Origin: Escherichia coli
GTDB lineage: Bacteria; Pseudomonadota; Gammaproteobacteria; Enterobacterales; Enterobacteriaceae
Assembly: GCF_003334765.1 (NCBI RefSeq)
Contig: NZ_QOWT01000029.1
Reading direction: 5' to 3' (one strand)
DNA length: 51,807 bases
In this document: piece after piece, positions 2,376-32,665 of the stretch
Layout of the letters: every line of letters starts with the position of its first letter
Numbering within the stretch: the stretch's first letter is position 1
The notes under the pieces: generated by a model
Seen by the model: only the letters and a program-made list of their open reading frames with translations
Databases searched by the model: none
Told to the model about the DNA's origin: nothing
Position numbers and translations under genes: made by a program

Positions 2376-3800
2376 CTATGTGAAGTGACGGTGAAGTCGT
2401 AGCGAGGCCAGCACGCCACCTTCCTGCACGTTGCGCAGCGTGACTTCGCCGTTAAACAAACGGGCGACCTCACTGACGAACGCCAACCCCAGACCGCTGC
2501 TTTTTTGCCCATTTGCACGCGGCAAAGAGTAAAAGCGTTCAAAAATGCGTGACAGCGCGTAGTCAGGAATACCACTACCGGTATCCAGCACCTTAAGCGT
2601 GACGTGTTCCTGATCCACTTCGGCGCTTAGCGTTATACGACCGCTCTCGGGGGTAAAATCGATGGCGTTATCCAGTAAATTCCCCAGCGCCTGATCCAGT
2701 AACGCCGGTTCAGCAGCAACATTAACCTCGGTGGGCGTAACATGTAGAGTGATGTTTTTTTCTGCCAACTGCACGGTGCGCGCTTCGCTGACGCGGCGGA
2801 ATAATGCCGCCACATCAACAGCAGTCAAAACGACTTCCTGACGATTCTCCAGTCTTGCCTGGCGTAGTAACGTTTCCACCAGTGCCTGCATTCGCGCATT
2901 TTGCGTCAGAATGTTGTCGGTAAAACGAGCCACCACTTCCGGCGGCGGACCTTCGCGTAAAATTTCCGCCGCGCCACGAATCGCCGCCAGTGGGCTTTTT
3001 AGCTCATGGGTTAACGCATAAACATACTGCTCAATATAGTTTTTCCCTTCCAGCTTCACGCGCATACTTTCCAGCGCCTGCGCGAGTTTACGCAGTTCGC
3101 TACTACCGAGATCGGGAAGAGGAACGGGCTTATTGTCAGTGACGGAATCAGCATAGCGAGTGAGCCGGGCAATGGAGCGGTTGATCCACCAAACCATGCC
3201 TGCGCCAATCACCAGTGCGATCCCCAACAAAATGGCGCTGGCCCATAAAATTCGCCGCTCGCTGCGTTTAATGACCGGAGCCATCGCCGCGTTCGGTTTG
3301 CCTACGCTCAAAACGCCAATAAGCCGCGAGCCGTCCATAATCGGCGCGGCAACATACATCACCGAACTTTCGGGATCGGCAGGATTTTGCAACGTGCTAC
3401 GCGCACCATACTGACCACGCAACGTTAGCCAGACGTCATTCCAGCGCGAATAATCCTGTCCAACGGCTTTATTTGCCGAATCGAACAATACTTTGCCCTG
3501 CGCATCGGTCATATAGACATGATATTCATTGCGCACTTTGTTAATGCCACCAATATTGGCGCGAAACGGGCGATGTTGTAGCTGATTAAACGCCTGCGCC
3601 AGTTGCCCATGCGTTGGGTCCCCAGAGAGCAAATCGGGACGCGCCAGCTCCGCCAGTAACGTTGCCGTGTCGATCAACGTCCCCTCCGTTGCTCTTCGCA
3701 CGCCCGGTTTAACTTCTTTGACAAAAATAGCCAGTACGAACCAGGCCGCCACCGCCACCAGTAAAAAATAGCCCAGCAGCAACCGCATGCCGATACGCAT
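2376..3800 (-). CDS. creC: Sensor histidine kinase CreC
   Basis: 474-aa ORF with N-terminal TM segment, H-box (LTHELKSPLAAIRG) and ATPase G-boxes; start overlaps creB stop. Confidence 0.95.
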   Translation of the reverse strand: MRIGMRLLLGYFLLVAVAAWFVLAIFVKEVKPGVRRATEGTLIDTATLLAELARPDLLSGDPTHGQLAQAFNQLQHRPFRANIGGINKVRNEYHVYMTDAQGKVLFDSANKAVGQDYSRWNDVWLTLRGQYGARSTLQNPADPESSVMYVAAPIMDGSRLIGVLSVGKPNAAMAPVIKRSERRILWASAILLGIALVIGAGMVWWINRSIARLTRYADSVTDNKPVPLPDLGSSELRKLAQALESMRVKLEGKNYIEQYVYALTHELKSPLAAIRGAAEILREGPPPEVVARFTDNILTQNARMQALVETLLRQARLENRQEVVLTAVDVAALFRRVSEARTVQLAEKNITLHVTPTEVNVAAEPALLDQALGNLLDNAIDFTPESGRITLSAEVDQEHVTLKVLDTGSGIPDYALSRIFERFYSLPRANGQKSSGLGLAFVSEVARLFNGEVTLRNVQEGGVLASLRLHRHFT

Positions 3801-4489
3801 TACAAGCCCCTCAGGCTATATCCCATGCCGCGATGAGTATTAATCGGTGAAAGATCGGGGTTGATGGCGCGCAGCTTGGCACGCAGCGTTTTAATGTGGG
3901 TATCGACGGTGCGATCGTAGGTGTCCTGCGCATCTTCCCACACGCTATCCATTAGTTGCTGGCGGGACCAGACGCGGCCTGGCGACTTGAGTAACGTCTT
4001 CAGCAATAAAAACTCATACCGCGTCAGCGTTAATGGCGTGTCAAACCAGCTGATCTGCGCCGCTGGTTCATTCAATTCAAAATGACCAATACGGATGACG
4101 GGAGACGGCGTCGAGAACTTCTTCACCCGACGCAGTAAGGTGCGCACCCTGGCGCACACTTCGCGGGGTGAAAACGGTTTAGCCACATAGTCGTCAGCGC
4201 CAATTTCCAGCCCAAGCAGGCGATCGACCTCTTCACTTCGGGCCGTCAGGAACAGTACAGGTAACGCCGGATGGAGCGCCAGTAACTGGCGGCACAATTC
4301 AAAGCCACTGATATCAGGCAAACCAACGTCGAGAATCATGACGTCGGGAACCTGCTGGCGAGCTTTATCCAGCACCGGCAAACCTCGCTCAAAGACCTCG
4401 ACGGCAAAACCTTCCTGCTGCAACATGTAGACCAGCGTGTCGGCTATCCCTTGCTCATCTTCCACTAACCAGACCGTTTCCCGTTGCAT
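3800..4489 (-). CDS. creB: Response regulator CreB (OmpR family)
   Basis: 229-aa ORF with receiver and winged-helix domains, directly upstream of creC. Confidence 0.95.
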   Translation of the reverse strand: MQRETVWLVEDEQGIADTLVYMLQQEGFAVEVFERGLPVLDKARQQVPDVMILDVGLPDISGFELCRQLLALHPALPVLFLTARSEEVDRLLGLEIGADDYVAKPFSPREVCARVRTLLRRVKKFSTPSPVIRIGHFELNEPAAQISWFDTPLTLTRYEFLLLKTLLKSPGRVWSRQQLMDSVWEDAQDTYDRTVDTHIKTLRAKLRAINPDLSPINTHRGMGYSLRGL

Positions 4490-6738: not shown

Positions 6739-7272
<534 letters not shown>

Positions 7273-7356
7273 GACGGATAAGGCGTTCACGCCGCATCCG
7301 GCATTCGGTGCACGATGCCTGATGCGACGCTGCCGCGTCTTATCAGGCCTACAAAA
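7273..7356. repeat. REP element pair (BIME) filling the yjjX-trpR gap
   Basis: GCCGCATCCGGCA ... GCCTGATGCGACGC ... CTTATCAGGCCTACA palindromic units. Confidence 0.75.
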
Positions 7357-11595: not shown

Positions 11596-11752
11596 AATGC
11601 CGGATGCGGCGTGAACGCCTTATCCGGCCTACAAACCAAGAAATTTCAATACGTTGTGAATCTCCAGGCCTGATAAGACGCGGTAAGCGTCGCATCAGGC
11701 ATTGAGCACCGAATGCCGGATGCGGCGTGAACACCTTTTCCGGTCTACAACA
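11596..11752. repeat. BIME cluster of several REP units
   Basis: Repeated GCCGGATGCGGCGTGAACGCCTTATCCGGCCTACA and GCCTGATAAGACGCG...CGCATCAGGC units. Confidence 0.8.
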
Positions 11753-21248: not shown

Positions 21249-22028
21249 TTAGTAGCTGCTGGCGCTCTTACCGTCGCCGTGGCCCAGAGCTTTCAGCAGG
21301 CTTGCCAGCAAGCTGGAAGCACCAAAGCGGTAGTGACGCGCATCAGCCCAGTCAGCACCGAACAGTTCATCTGCAATGGCGAGATATTTCTGCGCATCTT
21401 CCGCAGTACGCACGCCGCCCGCCGGTTTGAAACCAACGGTTTTTTCTACGCCCATATCGCGGATCACTTCCATCATGATGCGCGCGCTTTCCGGCGTCGC
21501 ATTCACAGCCACTTTACCGGTAGAGGTTTTGATGAAGTCAGCACCCGCTTTGATGGAGATTTCAGACGCTTTACGGATCAGCGCTTCGTCTTTCAGTTCG
21601 CCGGTTTCAATAATCACTTTCAGCAGTACGTTCGCCGCAGCGCAAGCCTCTTTACAGGCTTTCACCAGGTCAAAACCAACCTGCTCGTTACCCGCCATCA
21701 GCGCGCGGTACGGGAACACCACGTCAACTTCATCGGCACCGTAGGCGATTGCCGCACGGGTTTCTGCCAGCGCGATTTCGATGTCGTCGTTACCGTGTGG
21801 GAAGTTGGTTACCGTAGCAATACGGATTTCCGGGGTGCCCTGCTCTTTCAGAGTTTTGCGAGCAATCGGGATAAAGCGAGGATAGATACAGATAGCGGCG
21901 GTATTGCCGACCGGAGTTTTGGCCTGATGACACAGGGCGATCACTTTCTCATCGGTGTCGTCGTCATTCAGGGTGGTCAGGTCCATCAATTTCAGTGCAC
22001 GCAGGCTGCTTGCTTTCAGATCAGTCAT
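21249..22028 (-). CDS. deoC: Deoxyribose-phosphate aldolase DeoC
   Basis: ORF track 267 aa; start moved to [13 protein letters not shown] to give 259 aa. Confidence 0.95.
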
Positions 22029-22071: not shown

Positions 22072-22087
22072 TTGTTAGTATTCTAAC
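22072..22087. promoter_or_regulatory. DeoR operator O2 at deoP2
   Basis: 16-bp palindrome TGTTAGTATTCTAACA, 44 bp upstream of deoC start. Confidence 0.75.
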
Positions 22088-22285
22088 ATCTACTCCGCAA
22101 CACACTTCGATGTACATCACAATTAAGGAAATCTACTTACAAGTTTGCATCACTGTAATGCGATTTGGTTCAAATAATTCACTTTCAAATGAATGCGTCA
22201 GTGGTGGCAAACGCATCAGGATCAAAGTGAACATCACGAAACTTCTTACAATGGCGCATCACCTTCGGCATAAAAGGAAAAGAAG

Positions 22286-23836
22286 ATGCCCACTTCTCAT
22301 GAAAATGCACTGCAACAACGTTGCCAGCAAATTGTCACCAGCCCGGTACTTAGCCCGGAGCAGAAGCGCCATTTTCTGGCACTGGAAGCAGAAAACAATC
22401 TGCCTTACCCCGCGTTGCCTGCCGAAGCCCGCCGCGCGCTGGATGAGGGTGTAATCTGCGATATGTTTGAAGGTCATGCGCCGTACAAACCGCGCTATGT
22501 CTTACCCGATTACGCCCGTTTTCTGGCGAACGGTTCCGAATGGCTGGAGCTGGAAGGCGCGAAAGATCTTGATGACGCACTCTCTCTGCTGACCATTCTT
22601 TACCACCACGTACCGTCGGTCACATCGATGCCGGTCTACCTGGGGCAACTGGATGCGTTGTTGCAACCGTATGTTAGAATTCTAACACAAGACGAGATCG
22701 ATATTCGAATAAAACGTTTCTGGCGTTACCTCGACAGAACCCTGCCAGATGCCTTTATGCACGCCAATATCGGCCCGTCTGATTCGCCCATTACCCGCGC
22801 AATCTTACGTGCAGACGCAGAGTTGAAGCAGGTTTCACCGAACCTGACCTTTATCTACGATCCTGAAATCACCCCTGATGACCTGCTGCTGGAAGTGGCG
22901 AAGAACATCTGTGAATGTAGCAAACCGCACATCGCCAACGGTCCGGTGCATGATAAAATTTTCACAAAAGGGGGCTACGGGATTGTGAGCTGTTACAACT
23001 CACTGCCGCTGGCGGGTGGTGGCAGCACGCTGGTACGCCTAAACCTGAAAGCCATTGCCGAGCGCAGTGAATCGCTGGAGGACTTCTTTACGCGCACTCT
23101 ACCGCACTACTGCCAACAGCAGATCGCCATCATCGATGCGCGGTGTGAATTCCTCTATCAACAATCACACTTCTTTGAGAATAGCTTCCTGGTGAAAGAA
23201 GGGCTGATTAACCCTGAACGTTTTGTGCCAATGTTTGGCATGTATGGGCTGGCGGAAGCGGTTAACTTGCTGTGTGAAAAAGAAGGAATTGCCGCGCGTT
23301 ACGGTAAAGAAGCCACCGCAAATGAAGTGGGTTATCGCATCAGCGCGCAACTGGCGGAGTTTGTCGCCAATACCCCTGTGAAATATGGCTGGCAAAAACG
23401 CGCCATGTTACACGCACAGTCGGGGATCAGTTCCGATATCGGCACCACGCCGGGCGCGCGTTTACCATATGGCGATGAGCCAGATCCGATTACCCATCTG
23501 CAAACTGTCGCGCCGCATCATGCTTATTATTATTCCGGCATCAGCGACATTCTGACGCTCGACGAAACCATCAAACGTAATCCGCAGGCGCTGGTACAGC
23601 TTTGCCTCGGTGCCTTTAAAGCCGGAATGCGTGAATTTACCGCCAATGTCAGCGGTAACGATCTGGTTCGCGTTACCGGTTATATGGTGCGTTTGTCGGA
23701 TTTAGAAAAATATCGCGCCGAAGGTTCACGCACCAACACTACCTGGCTGGGAGAAGAAGCCGCACGCAACACTCGTATTCTGGAACGTCAGCCGCGCGTG
23801 ATAAGCCATGAACAGCAGATGCGCTTTAGTCAGTAA
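22286..23836 (+). CDS. yjjI: YjjI, glycyl-radical-enzyme-like protein of unknown function (DUF3029 family)
   Basis: 516-aa ORF; C-terminal LVRVTGYMV resembles the glycyl radical fingerprint RVSGY; overlapped at its 3' end by the activase-like yjjW. Confidence 0.9.
22672..22687. promoter_or_regulatory. DeoR operator O1 (deoP1 region), inside the yjjI coding sequence
   Basis: Perfect 16-bp palindrome TGTTAGAATTCTAACA exactly 600 bp from O2. Confidence 0.75.
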
Positions 23837-24671
23837 GATTATCCCCTTCTCCTGCGTTGACGGGCCAGGCAGTCGTCTGGCTCTGTTTTTGCAGGGCTGC
23901 AATCTGCGCTGCAAAAACTGTCACAATCCGTGGACGATGGGGCGCTGTAATGATTGCGGAGAGTGCGTGCCGCAGTGTCCGCATCAGGCGTTGCAGATTA
24001 TCGACGGCAAAGTGGCGTGGAGCGCGGCTGTTTGCGAGCAATGTGATACCTGCCTGAAGATGTGCCCGCAACATGCCACGCCAATGGCGCAATCCATGAG
24101 CGTGGACGAGGTGCTTAACCATGTCCGCAAAGCGGTGCTGTTTATTGAAGGGATAACGGTAAGCGGCGGCGAAGCCACGACCCAGTTGCCGTTTGTGGTG
24201 GCGCTGTTTACTGCCATCAAAAACGATCCGCAACTGTGCCATCTCACCTGCCTCGTGGACAGTAACGGCATGTTGAGCGAAACCGGCTGGGAAAAATTGC
24301 TCCCGGTGTGTGACGGCGCAATGCTCGATCTCAAAGCGTGGGGAAGCGAATGTCATCAGCAATTAACCGGACGCGATAATCAGCAGATCAAGCGCAGCAT
24401 CTGTTTGCTGGCAGAGCGCGGTAAGCTGGCGGAACTGCGTTTGCTGGTAATCCCTGGCCAGGTGGATTATTTGCAACACATCGAAGAACTGGCGGCGTTA
24501 ATCAAGGGACTTGGCGATGTTCCGGTACGCCTGAACGCGTTTCATGCCCACGGCGTGTATGGCGAGGCGCAAAGCTGGCCGAGCGCCACGCAGGAAGACA
24601 TTGAGCCGTTGGCTGATGCGTTAAAGGTGCGCGGGGTGAGCCGGTTGATATTTCCGGCGCTGTATTTGTGA
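23808..24671 (+). CDS. yjjW: YjjW, radical SAM glycyl-radical activating enzyme-like protein
   Basis: 287-aa ORF; radical SAM CxxxCxxC (CNLRCKNC) plus two ferredoxin-like CxxCxxCxxxC motifs ([22 protein letters not shown]). Confidence 0.9.
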
Positions 24672-24790
24672 CATGCCGGATGTGGCCTACAGTTCGGCAC
24701 AGACTTGTAGGCATGATAAGACGCGTCAAGCGTCGCATCAGGCATTGTGCGCCAACTGCCGGATGCGGCGTGAACGCCTTATCCGGCCTA
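24672..24790. repeat. BIME/REP cluster between yjjW and yjjV
   Basis: GCCGGATGTGGCCTACA, GATAAGACGCG...CGCATCAGGC, GCCGGATGCGGCGTGAACGCCTTATCCGGCCTACA; last unit overlaps the yjjV stop codon. Confidence 0.75.
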
Positions 24791-32578: not shown

Positions 32579-32665
32579 GCGAAGGTGGCGGAATTGGTAG
32601 ACGCGCTAGCTTCAGGTGTTAGTGTCCTTACGGACGTGGGGGTTCAAGTCCCCCCCCTCGCACCA
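32579..32665 (+). tRNA. leuV: tRNA-Leu (anticodon CAG)
   Basis: 87-nt sequence GCGAAGGTGGCGGAATTGGTAGACGCG...GGTTCAAGTCCCCCCCCTCGCACCA with anticodon loop CTTCAGGTG and encoded CCA; only one copy present. Confidence 0.95.

What the first reader, a model, noticed from the sequence alone, without database searches (positions are those of the whole stretch)
22072..22687. deoP1/DeoR operator O1 lies inside the yjjI coding sequence
Two DeoR operator palindromes are exactly 600 bp apart: TGTTAGTATTCTAACA at 22072 near the deoC start and a perfect TGTTAGAATTCTAACA at 22672. The second is about 129 codons into the yjjI ORF, on the strand antisense to yjjI. So the distal deo promoter, the DeoR loop and transcription from P1 all traverse the 5' third of yjjI, implying antisense interference between nucleoside catabolism and the yjjI-yjjW pair.
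Basis: partly seen in the sequence, partly recalled or inferred. Interest (0 to 1): 0.45.

Follow-up and report, generated by a model that had tools for sequence, protein, structure and literature searches.

The report
deo promoter and operators inside yjjI
The upstream promoter and two repressor-binding sites of the E. coli deoxynucleoside-breakdown operon really do lie inside the neighbouring gene yjjI; this layout is already known, and any effect on yjjI is still untested.

Summary
The window is the E. coli deoCABD / yjjI-yjjW locus. The two palindromes are the classical DeoR operators: O2 (22073-22088, at deoP2) and O1 (22672-22687, perfect, at deoP1). They are 599 bp apart, as published. 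O1 covers yjjI codons 129-134.

The yjjI start is sound, because homologues down to 33% identity are collinear from the N-terminus. Across 76 species with a divergent deoC neighbour, the O1 and OE windows are the two most synonymously conserved stretches of the whole gene. Rare codons (AGA, CTA, ACA, CGA, ATA) are frozen there. Six yjjI loci without a deoC neighbour lack the sites.

So deoP1 transcripts must run antisense through the first 387 nt of yjjI and its inferred FNR-dependent promoter, and DeoR must sit on yjjI DNA. Nothing here or in the searched literature tests whether that regulates yjjI.

The architecture is textbook, and one 2019 paper places a deo promoter inside yjjI in passing. 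Verdict: real, already known, low interest. The useful additions are the dual-coding evidence and a warning that yjjI deletions also remove deo control elements.

The parts
21249..22028 (-). deoC coding sequence, first gene of deoCABD
   Evidence: ORF list; RefSeq annotation of an identical E. coli stretch and of K-12
22073..22088 (-). DeoR operator O2 overlapping the deoP2 extended -10. On the deo strand it reads TGTTAGAATACTAACA, with TAGAAT at 22085-22080. Inferred P2 start is about 22073.
   Evidence: The sequence equals the published palindrome TGTTAGAA-TACTAACA (PMC5326754). It has 1-5 mismatches across 76 species.
22106..22121 (-). CRP-1 site of deoP2 (deo strand TGTGATGTACATCGAA), centred 40.5 bp upstream of the inferred P2 start
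   Evidence: Read. The CRP ChIP-seq site TGTGATGTATATCGAA is reported in the yjjI/deoC intergenic region of ETEC (PMC4287617). It is a conserved block in the intergenic alignment. The -40.5 position is recalled from the deoP2 literature.
22159..22174 (-). CRP-2 site of deoP2 (deo strand TTTGAACCAAATCGCA), centred 93.5 bp upstream of the inferred P2 start. CytR binds between CRP-1 and CRP-2.
   Evidence: Read. Partly conserved. The position is inferred from the known -93.5 geometry, which is recalled. CytR/CRP control of deoP2 is described in PMC3454398.
22212..22260 (+). Inferred yjjI promoter. It has an FNR half-site (GGATCAAA at 22219-22226, with the 14-mer centred at 22218.5), a -10 TACAAT at 22247-22252, and a predicted start near 22260.
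   Evidence: GGATCAAA is invariant in all 16 aligned species; the -10 hexamer keeps four of its six positions (TA-A-T) in all 16. Coordinates are. yjjI is listed as directly FNR-activated, with a ChIP peak about 93 bp upstream of the ATG and 'TSS not known' (PMC3688515; coordinate conversion inferred). The start site is an inference.
22286..23836 (+). yjjI coding sequence (YjjI-family glycyl radical enzyme, PF11230)
   Evidence: Homologues from 33 to 90% identity are collinear from residue 7-25.
22672..22687 (-). DeoR operator O1, a perfect palindrome, which is also the deoP1 extended -10. On the deo strand TG is at 22687-22686 and TAGAAT at 22684-22679. Inferred P1 start is about 22672. It covers yjjI codons 129-134.
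   Evidence: Matches the published palindrome and the 599-bp spacing. It sits at the identical offset in all 76 species with a deoC neighbour, perfect in 53. Synonymous conservation is 0.96 against a gene mean of 0.55, and 0 of 2000 permutations reach it.
22697..22726 (-). Conserved block upstream of the deoP1 -10 (the -35/UP region), covering yjjI codons 138-147 and containing rare codons CGA141 and ATA142
   Evidence: ATCGATATTCGAATAAAACGTTTCTGGCG is nearly invariant in the alignment. The window of codons 139-145 scores 0.87. The permutation p is about 0.14 as a gene-wide maximum. Assigning it to -35/UP is an inference, because no good -35 hexamer is present.
22951..22966 (.). Third DeoR operator OE (deo strand TGTGAAAATTTTATCA), 279 bp beyond O1 and 878 bp from O2, covering yjjI codons 222-227
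   Evidence: It is the highest synonymous conservation window of the gene (0.989), reached by 1 of 2000 permutations. The existence of three separated deo operators, and looping over up to about 900 bp, comes from the literature. Identifying this site with the published OE rests on my recollection of the 279-bp distance.
23808..24671 (+). yjjW, the glycyl-radical activating enzyme, overlapping the yjjI end by 29 nt; a likely operon partner
   Evidence: The pairing is kept in all related loci.

Best explanation
This is the classical control region of the E. coli deoCABD operon, seen against a genome annotation that did not exist when it was dissected. deoP2 with operator O2 lies in the 257-bp deoC-yjjI spacer. 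deoP1 with operator O1, and the far operator OE, lie 387 and 666 nt inside the divergent gene yjjI.

How it works, from the literature: multimeric DeoR bridges O1, O2 and OE into single or double loops and shuts both promoters. Deoxyribose-5-phosphate releases it.

Shown here: the two intragenic sites and the P1 core are kept by selection on the DNA itself, over the coding constraint. Synonymous positions are frozen in 76 species and five rare codons are fixed. Residue 131 changes radically (R/K/G/I) while its codon keeps the operator pattern. The sites sit in variable, indel-bearing loops of the YjjI family. They are absent from the yjjI loci that lack a deoC neighbour.

Inferred consequences for yjjI: when DeoR is released, P1 transcripts run antisense through yjjI nt 1-387, its ribosome-binding site and its FNR-type promoter. 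That makes a convergent promoter pair about 410 bp apart. When DeoR is bound, the yjjI promoter sits inside the O1-O2 loop, and RNA polymerase transcribing yjjI must pass DeoR at O1 and OE. I judge these effects most likely to be tolerated side effects rather than a selected regulatory link.
For: The sequences equal the published DeoR palindromes. P1-P2 spacing of 599 bp matches. Natural looping reaches up to about 900 bp, against 878 bp for OE-O2 here. One paper states that one deo promoter lies in the upstream gene yjjI (PMC6389913).

yjjI annotation and start.

Comparative data: O1 is at the same offset in 76 of 76 species with a deoC neighbour, perfect in 53. The O1 and OE windows rank first and second of the whole gene for synonymous conservation, reached by 0 and 1 of 2000 permutations. 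The rare codons AGA, CTA, ACA, CGA and ATA, each 3-8% of usage for their amino acid, cluster in codons 131-142.

Six loci without a deoC neighbour have no site. Positions 130-135 and 221-229 are variable with indels in distant homologues.

yjjI promoter: conserved GGATCAAA and TACAAT, and FNR activation with a ChIP peak upstream of yjjI. No terminator-grade structure was found in the P1 leader.
Against: The original papers are not held. Start sites for P1, P2 and yjjI are inferred from -10 elements and spacing. The consensus promoter scan called neither P1 nor P2, because their -35 hexamers are poor. Identifying 22951-22966 with the published OE relies on a recalled distance. One lineage (L088) has the deoC-yjjI adjacency but no operators, so the arrangement is not obligatory. 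A third conserved window (codons 296-302) and a CRP ChIP peak inside yjjI are not explained by this model.
Confidence: 0.88

Rival explanations
1. Selected regulatory coupling of the excludon type. The long deoP1 leader is used to switch yjjI-yjjW off, by convergent-transcription collision, promoter occlusion or antisense pairing, whenever deoxyribose-5-phosphate induces deo. The glycyl radical enzyme and deoxynucleoside catabolism are then mutually exclusive.
For: The geometry fits: a convergent P1 and an inferred yjjI promoter about 410 bp apart, with P1 reading across the yjjI promoter. The arrangement is kept from Escherichia to Hafnia and Edwardsiella. yjjI-yjjW sits among nucleoside genes in several lineages, with deoCA on one side and a NupC-type transporter and TatD on the other.
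Against: No expression data link deo induction to yjjI in any held paper. Apart from the promoter and operator, the overlapped segment shows no extra constraint. Conservation of P1/O1 is fully explained by deo regulation alone. L088 keeps the adjacency without the embedded sites.
Confidence: 0.2
2. DeoR acts on yjjI directly. DeoR bound with high affinity at O1 and OE, and the O1-O2 loop enclosing the yjjI promoter, block or attenuate yjjI transcription until deoxyribose-5-phosphate releases DeoR. On this view yjjI is a hidden member of the DeoR regulon.
For: Two operators lie 387 and 666 nt downstream of the yjjI start codon and are strictly conserved. The yjjI promoter lies between O2 and O1. 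Roadblocks at operators inside coding sequence are an established mechanism; PurR at purB and LacI at lac O2 are recalled examples.
Against: Nothing tests it. Roadblocks inside translated regions are usually leaky. Release of DeoR would at the same time fire the opposing P1, so the net effect cannot be predicted. yjjI co-varies with FNR and anaerobic genes in the expression studies found, not with deo.
Confidence: 0.15
3. The intragenic palindrome is a by-product of protein coding or chance and is not a DeoR site.
For: P128, Y129 and T134 are conserved residues of the family.
Against: It is a perfect 16-mer identical to the published operator, with 0.12 chance matches expected in the window. 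Residues 130-133 are variable in the family, yet their rare codons are frozen in 76 species. The sequence is absent where deoC is not adjacent.
Confidence: 0.01
4. yjjI really starts downstream of 22687, so O1 lies upstream of the gene.
For: None found.
Against: Homologues of 499-532 residues align from query residues 7-25 onward, and many invariant residues lie before position 129. An AGGA ribosome-binding site precedes the ATG at 22286. RefSeq and K-12 annotate the same start.
Confidence: 0.01

Closest known systems
E. coli deoCABD control region (deoP1-O1, deoP2-O2, OE; DeoR looping; CytR/CRP at P2)
   Same: It is this system. The palindromes are identical, the O1-O2 spacing is 599 bp, a third site lies about 280 bp further upstream, and each of O1 and O2 overlaps an extended -10 (TGTTAGAAT). 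CRP sites are centred 40.5 and 93.5 bp upstream of P2.
   Different: Nothing differs in the DNA. What is added is the coding context: O1, P1 and OE lie inside yjjI. The comparative evidence that these sites override synonymous and even amino-acid choice in YjjI is also new here.
Auxiliary operators inside coding sequence (lac O2 in lacZ, gal OI in galE, PurR site in purB)
   Same: A repressor site sits inside an open reading frame and cooperates by looping with a promoter-proximal site. It is a possible roadblock to elongating polymerase.
   Different: In those cases the operator lies in a gene of the regulated operon itself. Here the sites, plus a whole promoter, lie in a divergent, separately regulated neighbour and are read on the opposite strand.
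Excludon and convergent-promoter transcriptional interference (Listeria excludons; coliphage 186 pR/pL)
   Same: A long 5' leader from one transcription unit overlaps a divergent neighbour's 5' end and promoter in antisense. The two promoters are convergent, a few hundred bp apart.
   Different: Reciprocal expression, the defining behaviour, has not been shown for deoP1 and yjjI. The overlap here may be only a tolerated by-product.

Membership tests
DeoR operator set of the deo operon | 16-bp palindrome TGTTAGAA/TTCTAACA (O1) and TGTTAGAA/TACTAACA (O2) | tested here: met
   Exact matches at 22672-22687 and 22073-22088. The published sequences are quoted in PMC5326754.
DeoR operator set of the deo operon | O1 and O2 (P1 and P2) separated by 599 bp upstream of deoC | tested here: met
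   22672 minus 22073 is 599, and the spacing is the same in K-12. The figure is given in PMC3334521.
DeoR operator set of the deo operon | A third, upstream operator (OE) that allows double loops over about 900 bp | tested here: met
   A 4-mismatch site lies at 22951-22966, 878 bp from O2. It is the most synonymously conserved window of yjjI. Three operators and looping up to about 900 bp are in the literature. The exact published position of OE could not be read.
DeoR operator set of the deo operon | Operators overlap the -10 regions of functional promoters | tested here: inconclusive
   Both operators contain TGT-TAGAAT, an extended -10, on the deo strand. The consensus scan did not call them, because the -35 hexamers are weak. 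No 5'-end data were available.
DeoR operator set of the deo operon | DeoR binds, and deoxyribose-5-phosphate releases it | not testable with these tools
   Literature only.
Excludon / antisense transcriptional interference | Divergent genes, with the leader of one overlapping the 5' end of the other in antisense | tested here: met
   The inferred P1 start near 22672 reads leftwards across yjjI nt 1-387 and its promoter at 22212-22260. This depends on the inferred start sites.
Excludon / antisense transcriptional interference | Reciprocal expression of the two units that depends on the overlapping transcript | not testable with these tools
   No held paper reports yjjI expression against deo induction or a deoR mutation.
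YjjI family glycyl radical enzyme (PF11230) | A full-length match to the family, with an adjacent radical-SAM activase | tested here: met
   PF11230 is recorded on all close homologues, and the RefSeq name is 'YjjI family glycine radical enzyme'. yjjW is adjacent in every locus.

The most novel reading that the evidence does not exclude
The embedding of deoP1, O1 and OE in yjjI is a selected two-way switch and not an accident of gene packing. DeoR bound at O1 and OE, with the O1-O2 loop, throttles yjjI-yjjW. Induced P1 transcription collides with the FNR-driven yjjI promoter. The orphan glycyl radical enzyme YjjI is thereby tied to deoxyribose and nucleoside availability under anaerobiosis. 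In other lineages it sits between deoCA and a NupC-type transporter plus TatD, which would point to an unrecognised anaerobic step in nucleoside or deoxyribose metabolism.
Probability: 0.12. Interest if true: 0.55.

Novelty: already known. Interest (0 to 1): 0.22.

Why it matters
The deo region is a founding example of repression by DNA looping, so its anatomy holds no surprise. Three points are still useful.

First, this is a clean natural case of dual coding. A promoter and two operators dictate codon choice, and even amino-acid choice, inside a conserved enzyme gene across dozens of genera.

Second, there is a practical warning. Deleting or disrupting yjjI (Keio-type deletions, transposon hits between P1 and P2) also removes deoP1, O1 and OE. 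That should alter deo repression, so phenotypes assigned to the orphan enzyme YjjI may be deo effects.

Third, the geometry gives a concrete, cheap test of whether convergent transcription or a repressor roadblock controls an uncharacterised glycyl radical enzyme.

Tried and rejected
- The original deo papers could not be read: Dandanell and Hammer 1985 (PMC554662), Valentin-Hansen 1986 (PMC1167072) and the Thomason 2015 start-site tables (PMC4288677) are not held.
- Searching for the operator sequence and for 'deoCp1' or 'DeoR octamer' returned only unrelated primer matches.
- The consensus promoter and terminator scan did not detect P1 or P2. It gave one weak terminator-like hairpin on the deo strand at 22324-22312. 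Folding that stretch gave z = -0.67, which is not significant, so I dropped the idea of an attenuator in the P1 leader.
- Rfam found no RNA family in the deoC-yjjI region.
- I considered that the antisense overlap itself might be under sequence constraint. Synonymous conservation of codons 13-126 (0.50) is no higher than the rest of the gene (0.54), so it was rejected.
- I considered that the palindrome reflects conserved protein sequence. Residues 130-133 and 221-229 are variable with indels in the family, so it was rejected.
- Four-mismatch palindrome-like hits at the same place in yjjW of Proteus and Providencia (TGTAAAAATTGTCACA) are at the 4-mismatch level, where about 1.5 matches are expected by chance in the 52-kb window, so I did not follow them up. 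I suspect, but did not check, that they encode the radical-SAM cysteine motif.

Full report
WHAT IS IN THE SEQUENCE

The window carries deoC on the minus strand (21249-22028) and, diverging from it, yjjI (22286-23836) and yjjW (23808-24671) on the plus strand. The stretch is 100% identical to several E. coli chromosomes and 95-100% identical to 5424 of 5426 complete E. coli genomes.

A search for the perfect palindrome TGTTAGAATTCTAACA with up to three mismatches finds exactly two sites. TGTTAGTATTCTAACA is at 22073-22088. The perfect copy is at 22672-22687. By chance 0.12 matches are expected, and none of 100 shuffles gave two.

Relaxing to four mismatches adds a single further site, TGATAAAATTTTCACA at 22951-22966, which is 279 bp beyond the perfect copy. 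The same three sites, with the same spacings, are in K-12 MG1655 at 4617263, 4616664 and 4616385.

WHAT IT IS

These are the DeoR operators of the deo operon. A held paper quotes the DeoR palindromes established in the 1980s as TGTTAGAA-TACTAACA and TGTTAGAA-TTCTAACA (PMC5326754). Read on the deo strand, these are exactly the 22073 and 22672 sites.

Reviews state that deoP1 and deoP2 are 599 bp apart and are locked together by DeoR-mediated looping (PMC3334521). They also state that natural looping in deo reaches about 900 bp (PMC4217526). The distance from 22951 to 22073 is 878 bp. The title of Valentin-Hansen et al. 1986, cited, speaks of three genetically separated operators. I therefore assign O2 = 22073-22088, O1 = 22672-22687 and OE = 22951-22966. 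The last assignment also rests on my recollection that OE lies 279 bp upstream of O1.

On the deo strand both O1 and O2 begin TGT-TAGAAT, which is an extended -10 element. This places the P2 start near 22073 and the P1 start near 22672. With that P2 start, the CRP-like sites at 22106-22121 and 22159-22174 fall at -40.5 and -93.5, the positions I recall for deoP2. The first equals the CRP ChIP-seq site reported between yjjI and deoC in ETEC.

IS O1 REALLY INSIDE yjjI?

Yes. O1 runs from the third base of codon 129 to the end of codon 134 (taT GTT AGA ATT CTA ACA, Y V R I L T). OE covers codons 222-227 (H D K I F T).

The annotated start is sound. RefSeq and K-12 annotate it and an AGGA precedes it. 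The full-length homologues among the best database hits are 511-521 residues and cover 98-100% of the query. Thirteen full-length homologues of 33-71% identity, all 494-532 residues, align from query residues 7-25 onward, with many invariant residues before position 129.

EVIDENCE THAT THE INTRAGENIC SITES ARE FUNCTIONAL DNA ELEMENTS

I fetched 80 yjjI loci from species representatives, ranging from Escherichia to Proteus.

In all 76 loci with a divergent deoC neighbour, a DeoR-type site sits at exactly the same offset of yjjI. It is perfect in 53 loci, has one mismatch in 19 and two in 4. The intergenic O2 is never perfect (1-5 mismatches), and the O1-O2 distance drifts between 567 and 675 bp.

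I then measured, codon by codon, how often species sharing the same amino acid also share the same codon. The gene mean is 0.55. The two highest 7-codon windows of the whole gene are codons 222-228 (OE, 0.989) and 129-135 (O1, 0.961). Codons 139-145, just upstream of the P1 -10, rank fourth at 0.87. After normalising by amino acid and permuting within amino-acid classes, the gene-wide maximum reached the O1 value in 0 of 2000 trials and the OE value in 1 of 2000.

The alignment shows flanking codons varying freely while TATGTTAGAATTCTAACACAAGA and ATCGATATTCGAATAAAACGTTTCTGGCG stay fixed. OE's ATGATAAAATTTTCACA is likewise fixed, although it is a poor match to the consensus.

The fixed codons are rare ones. 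AGA131, CTA133, ACA134, CGA141 and ATA142 each make up 3-8% of codons for their amino acid in the window's long ORFs. Residue 131 changes radically between species (R, K, G, I), yet its codon stays AGA, AAA, GGA or ATA, which preserves the operator pattern. At this position the DNA element shapes the protein, not the reverse.

In distant family members, positions 130-135 and 221-229 are variable and carry indels. The elements therefore occupy tolerant loops.

PHYLETIC PATTERN

Six yjjI-yjjW loci without a deoC neighbour have no such site and use ordinary codons there. They are two Proteus loci, one Providencia locus and three unnamed lineages. A 77%-identical lineage with a deoC neighbour (L087) has all three operators. 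A 70%-identical lineage (L088) has the deoC neighbour but no operators. The adjacency is thus older than, or independent of, the embedded control elements. The second refuting condition, that the palindrome is not a DeoR site, cannot be tested by binding here, but every indirect test contradicts it.

CONSEQUENCES FOR yjjI (INFERRED)

The intergenic alignment shows an invariant GGATCAAA (22219-22226) and a conserved TACAAT (22247-22252) upstream of the yjjI ribosome-binding site. As an FNR half-site centred at 22218.5, with a -10 placed 29 bp downstream, this fits a class II FNR promoter starting near 22260. yjjI is listed as directly FNR-activated, with a ChIP peak that converts to about 93 bp upstream of its ATG and with 'TSS not known' (PMC3688515). 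yjjI also co-varies with anaerobic respiration genes.

Hence P1 and the yjjI promoter are convergent, about 410 bp apart. P1 transcripts must cross the yjjI 5' coding region, its ribosome-binding site and its promoter before reaching P2 and deoC. I found no credible terminator in that leader.

Conversely, with DeoR bound, the yjjI promoter lies inside the O1-O2 loop, and polymerase transcribing yjjI meets DeoR at O1 and OE.

Either effect is plausible, but neither has been shown. No held paper connects yjjI expression with DeoR or deo induction. The overlapped segment shows no constraint beyond the promoter and operator (0.50 against 0.54). Conservation of the sites is fully explained by deo regulation alone. 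I therefore rank 'tolerated overlap' above 'selected coupling'.

COMPARISON WITH WHAT IS KNOWN, AND NOVELTY

The element is not merely like the deo control region; it is that region. That a deo promoter lies in yjjI is implicit in every genome annotation since 1997. It is also stated outright, in passing, by Choe et al. [quoted passage not shown] A CRP ChIP-seq study also lists a peak inside yjjI.

Operators inside coding sequence (lac O2, gal OI) and leaders overlapping divergent neighbours (excludons, convergent-promoter interference) are established kinds. The finding is therefore already known.

A practical corollary follows: yjjI deletions and insertions between P1 and P2 also remove or cut deoP1, O1 and OE. 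One example is the transposon hit at K-12 4616796. Such mutations should disturb deo regulation.

LIMITS

All start sites are inferred. DeoR binding was not tested. Presence of deoR in the compared species was not checked. The FNR coordinate conversion between genome versions rests on the length difference between the two K-12 records, and I recalled the older record's length rather than checking it. The 76 species are related, so the permutation test controls for position within the gene but not for phylogeny.

Noticed in passing
window 23171-23191 (yjjI codons 296-302, TTCTTTGAGAATAGCTTCCTG): This is the third-highest synonymous conservation window of yjjI across 76 species (0.875; about 9% of permutations reach it as a gene-wide maximum). 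It lies 220 bp beyond OE. It is not DeoR-like and not palindromic, and it differs in Proteus. It could be another embedded site or just an extreme of the distribution.
   Followed up: partly
window 22611-22626 and about 22660: A published CRP ChIP-seq peak lies inside yjjI in ETEC, with the assigned motif CGTACCGTCGGTCACA (PMC4287617). The peak coordinate is 544 bp from the deoP2 CRP peak, which puts it about 20 bp from O1 and not on the weak motif. It might be an indirect signal from CRP at P2 brought next to O1 by the DeoR loop.
   Followed up: partly
window 22159-22260: The CRP-2 site of deoP2 (centre 22166.5) is 93.5 bp from the inferred P2 start and also about 93.5 bp from the inferred yjjI start. 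An FNR half-site lies at about -41.5 of yjjI. This resembles FNR plus CRP co-activated promoters such as ansB (recalled), so CRP-2 may serve both divergent promoters. It depends on an unmapped yjjI start.
   Followed up: no
L086 3399-4688, L087 4925-6202, L088 4927-6204: In three more distant lineages a NupC-family nucleoside transporter, followed in L087 and L088 by a TatD-type hydrolase, lies directly downstream of yjjW. In L087 and L088 deoC-deoA lies upstream. The orphan glycyl radical enzyme pair is thus embedded among nucleoside and DNA-scavenging genes. E. coli keeps only the TatD-like yjjV.
   Followed up: partly
L088 (Logan SRR31913104 contig), yjjI 2501-4051: This lineage, with 70% YjjI identity, has a divergent deoC neighbour and a 404-bp spacer. 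It has no DeoR-like site within 4 mismatches in yjjI or in the spacer. The gene adjacency therefore exists without the embedded operators. Its taxon and deoR status are unknown.
   Followed up: no
window 7272-7349 (+), 11667-11745 (-), 24710-24788 (-): Three Rfam naRNA4 (RF02564) matches, which I take to be REP-type repeats. One lies in the yjjW-yjjV spacer just downstream of the yjjI-yjjW unit. A tRNA is at 32579-32662.
   Followed up: no
window 23808-23836: yjjW starts 29 nt before the yjjI stop codon. The same offset (yjjW at yjjI nt 1522-1523) holds in nearly all related loci, which fits translational coupling of the enzyme and its activase.
   Followed up: no
K-12 NC_000913.3 4616796-4616804 (equivalent to about window 22550): A transposon insertion reported as a yjjI/yjjW hit in an RNA-folding screen (PMC11587861) lies between deoP1 and deoP2. 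It would also cut P1-derived deo transcripts and separate O1 and OE from O2.
   Followed up: no
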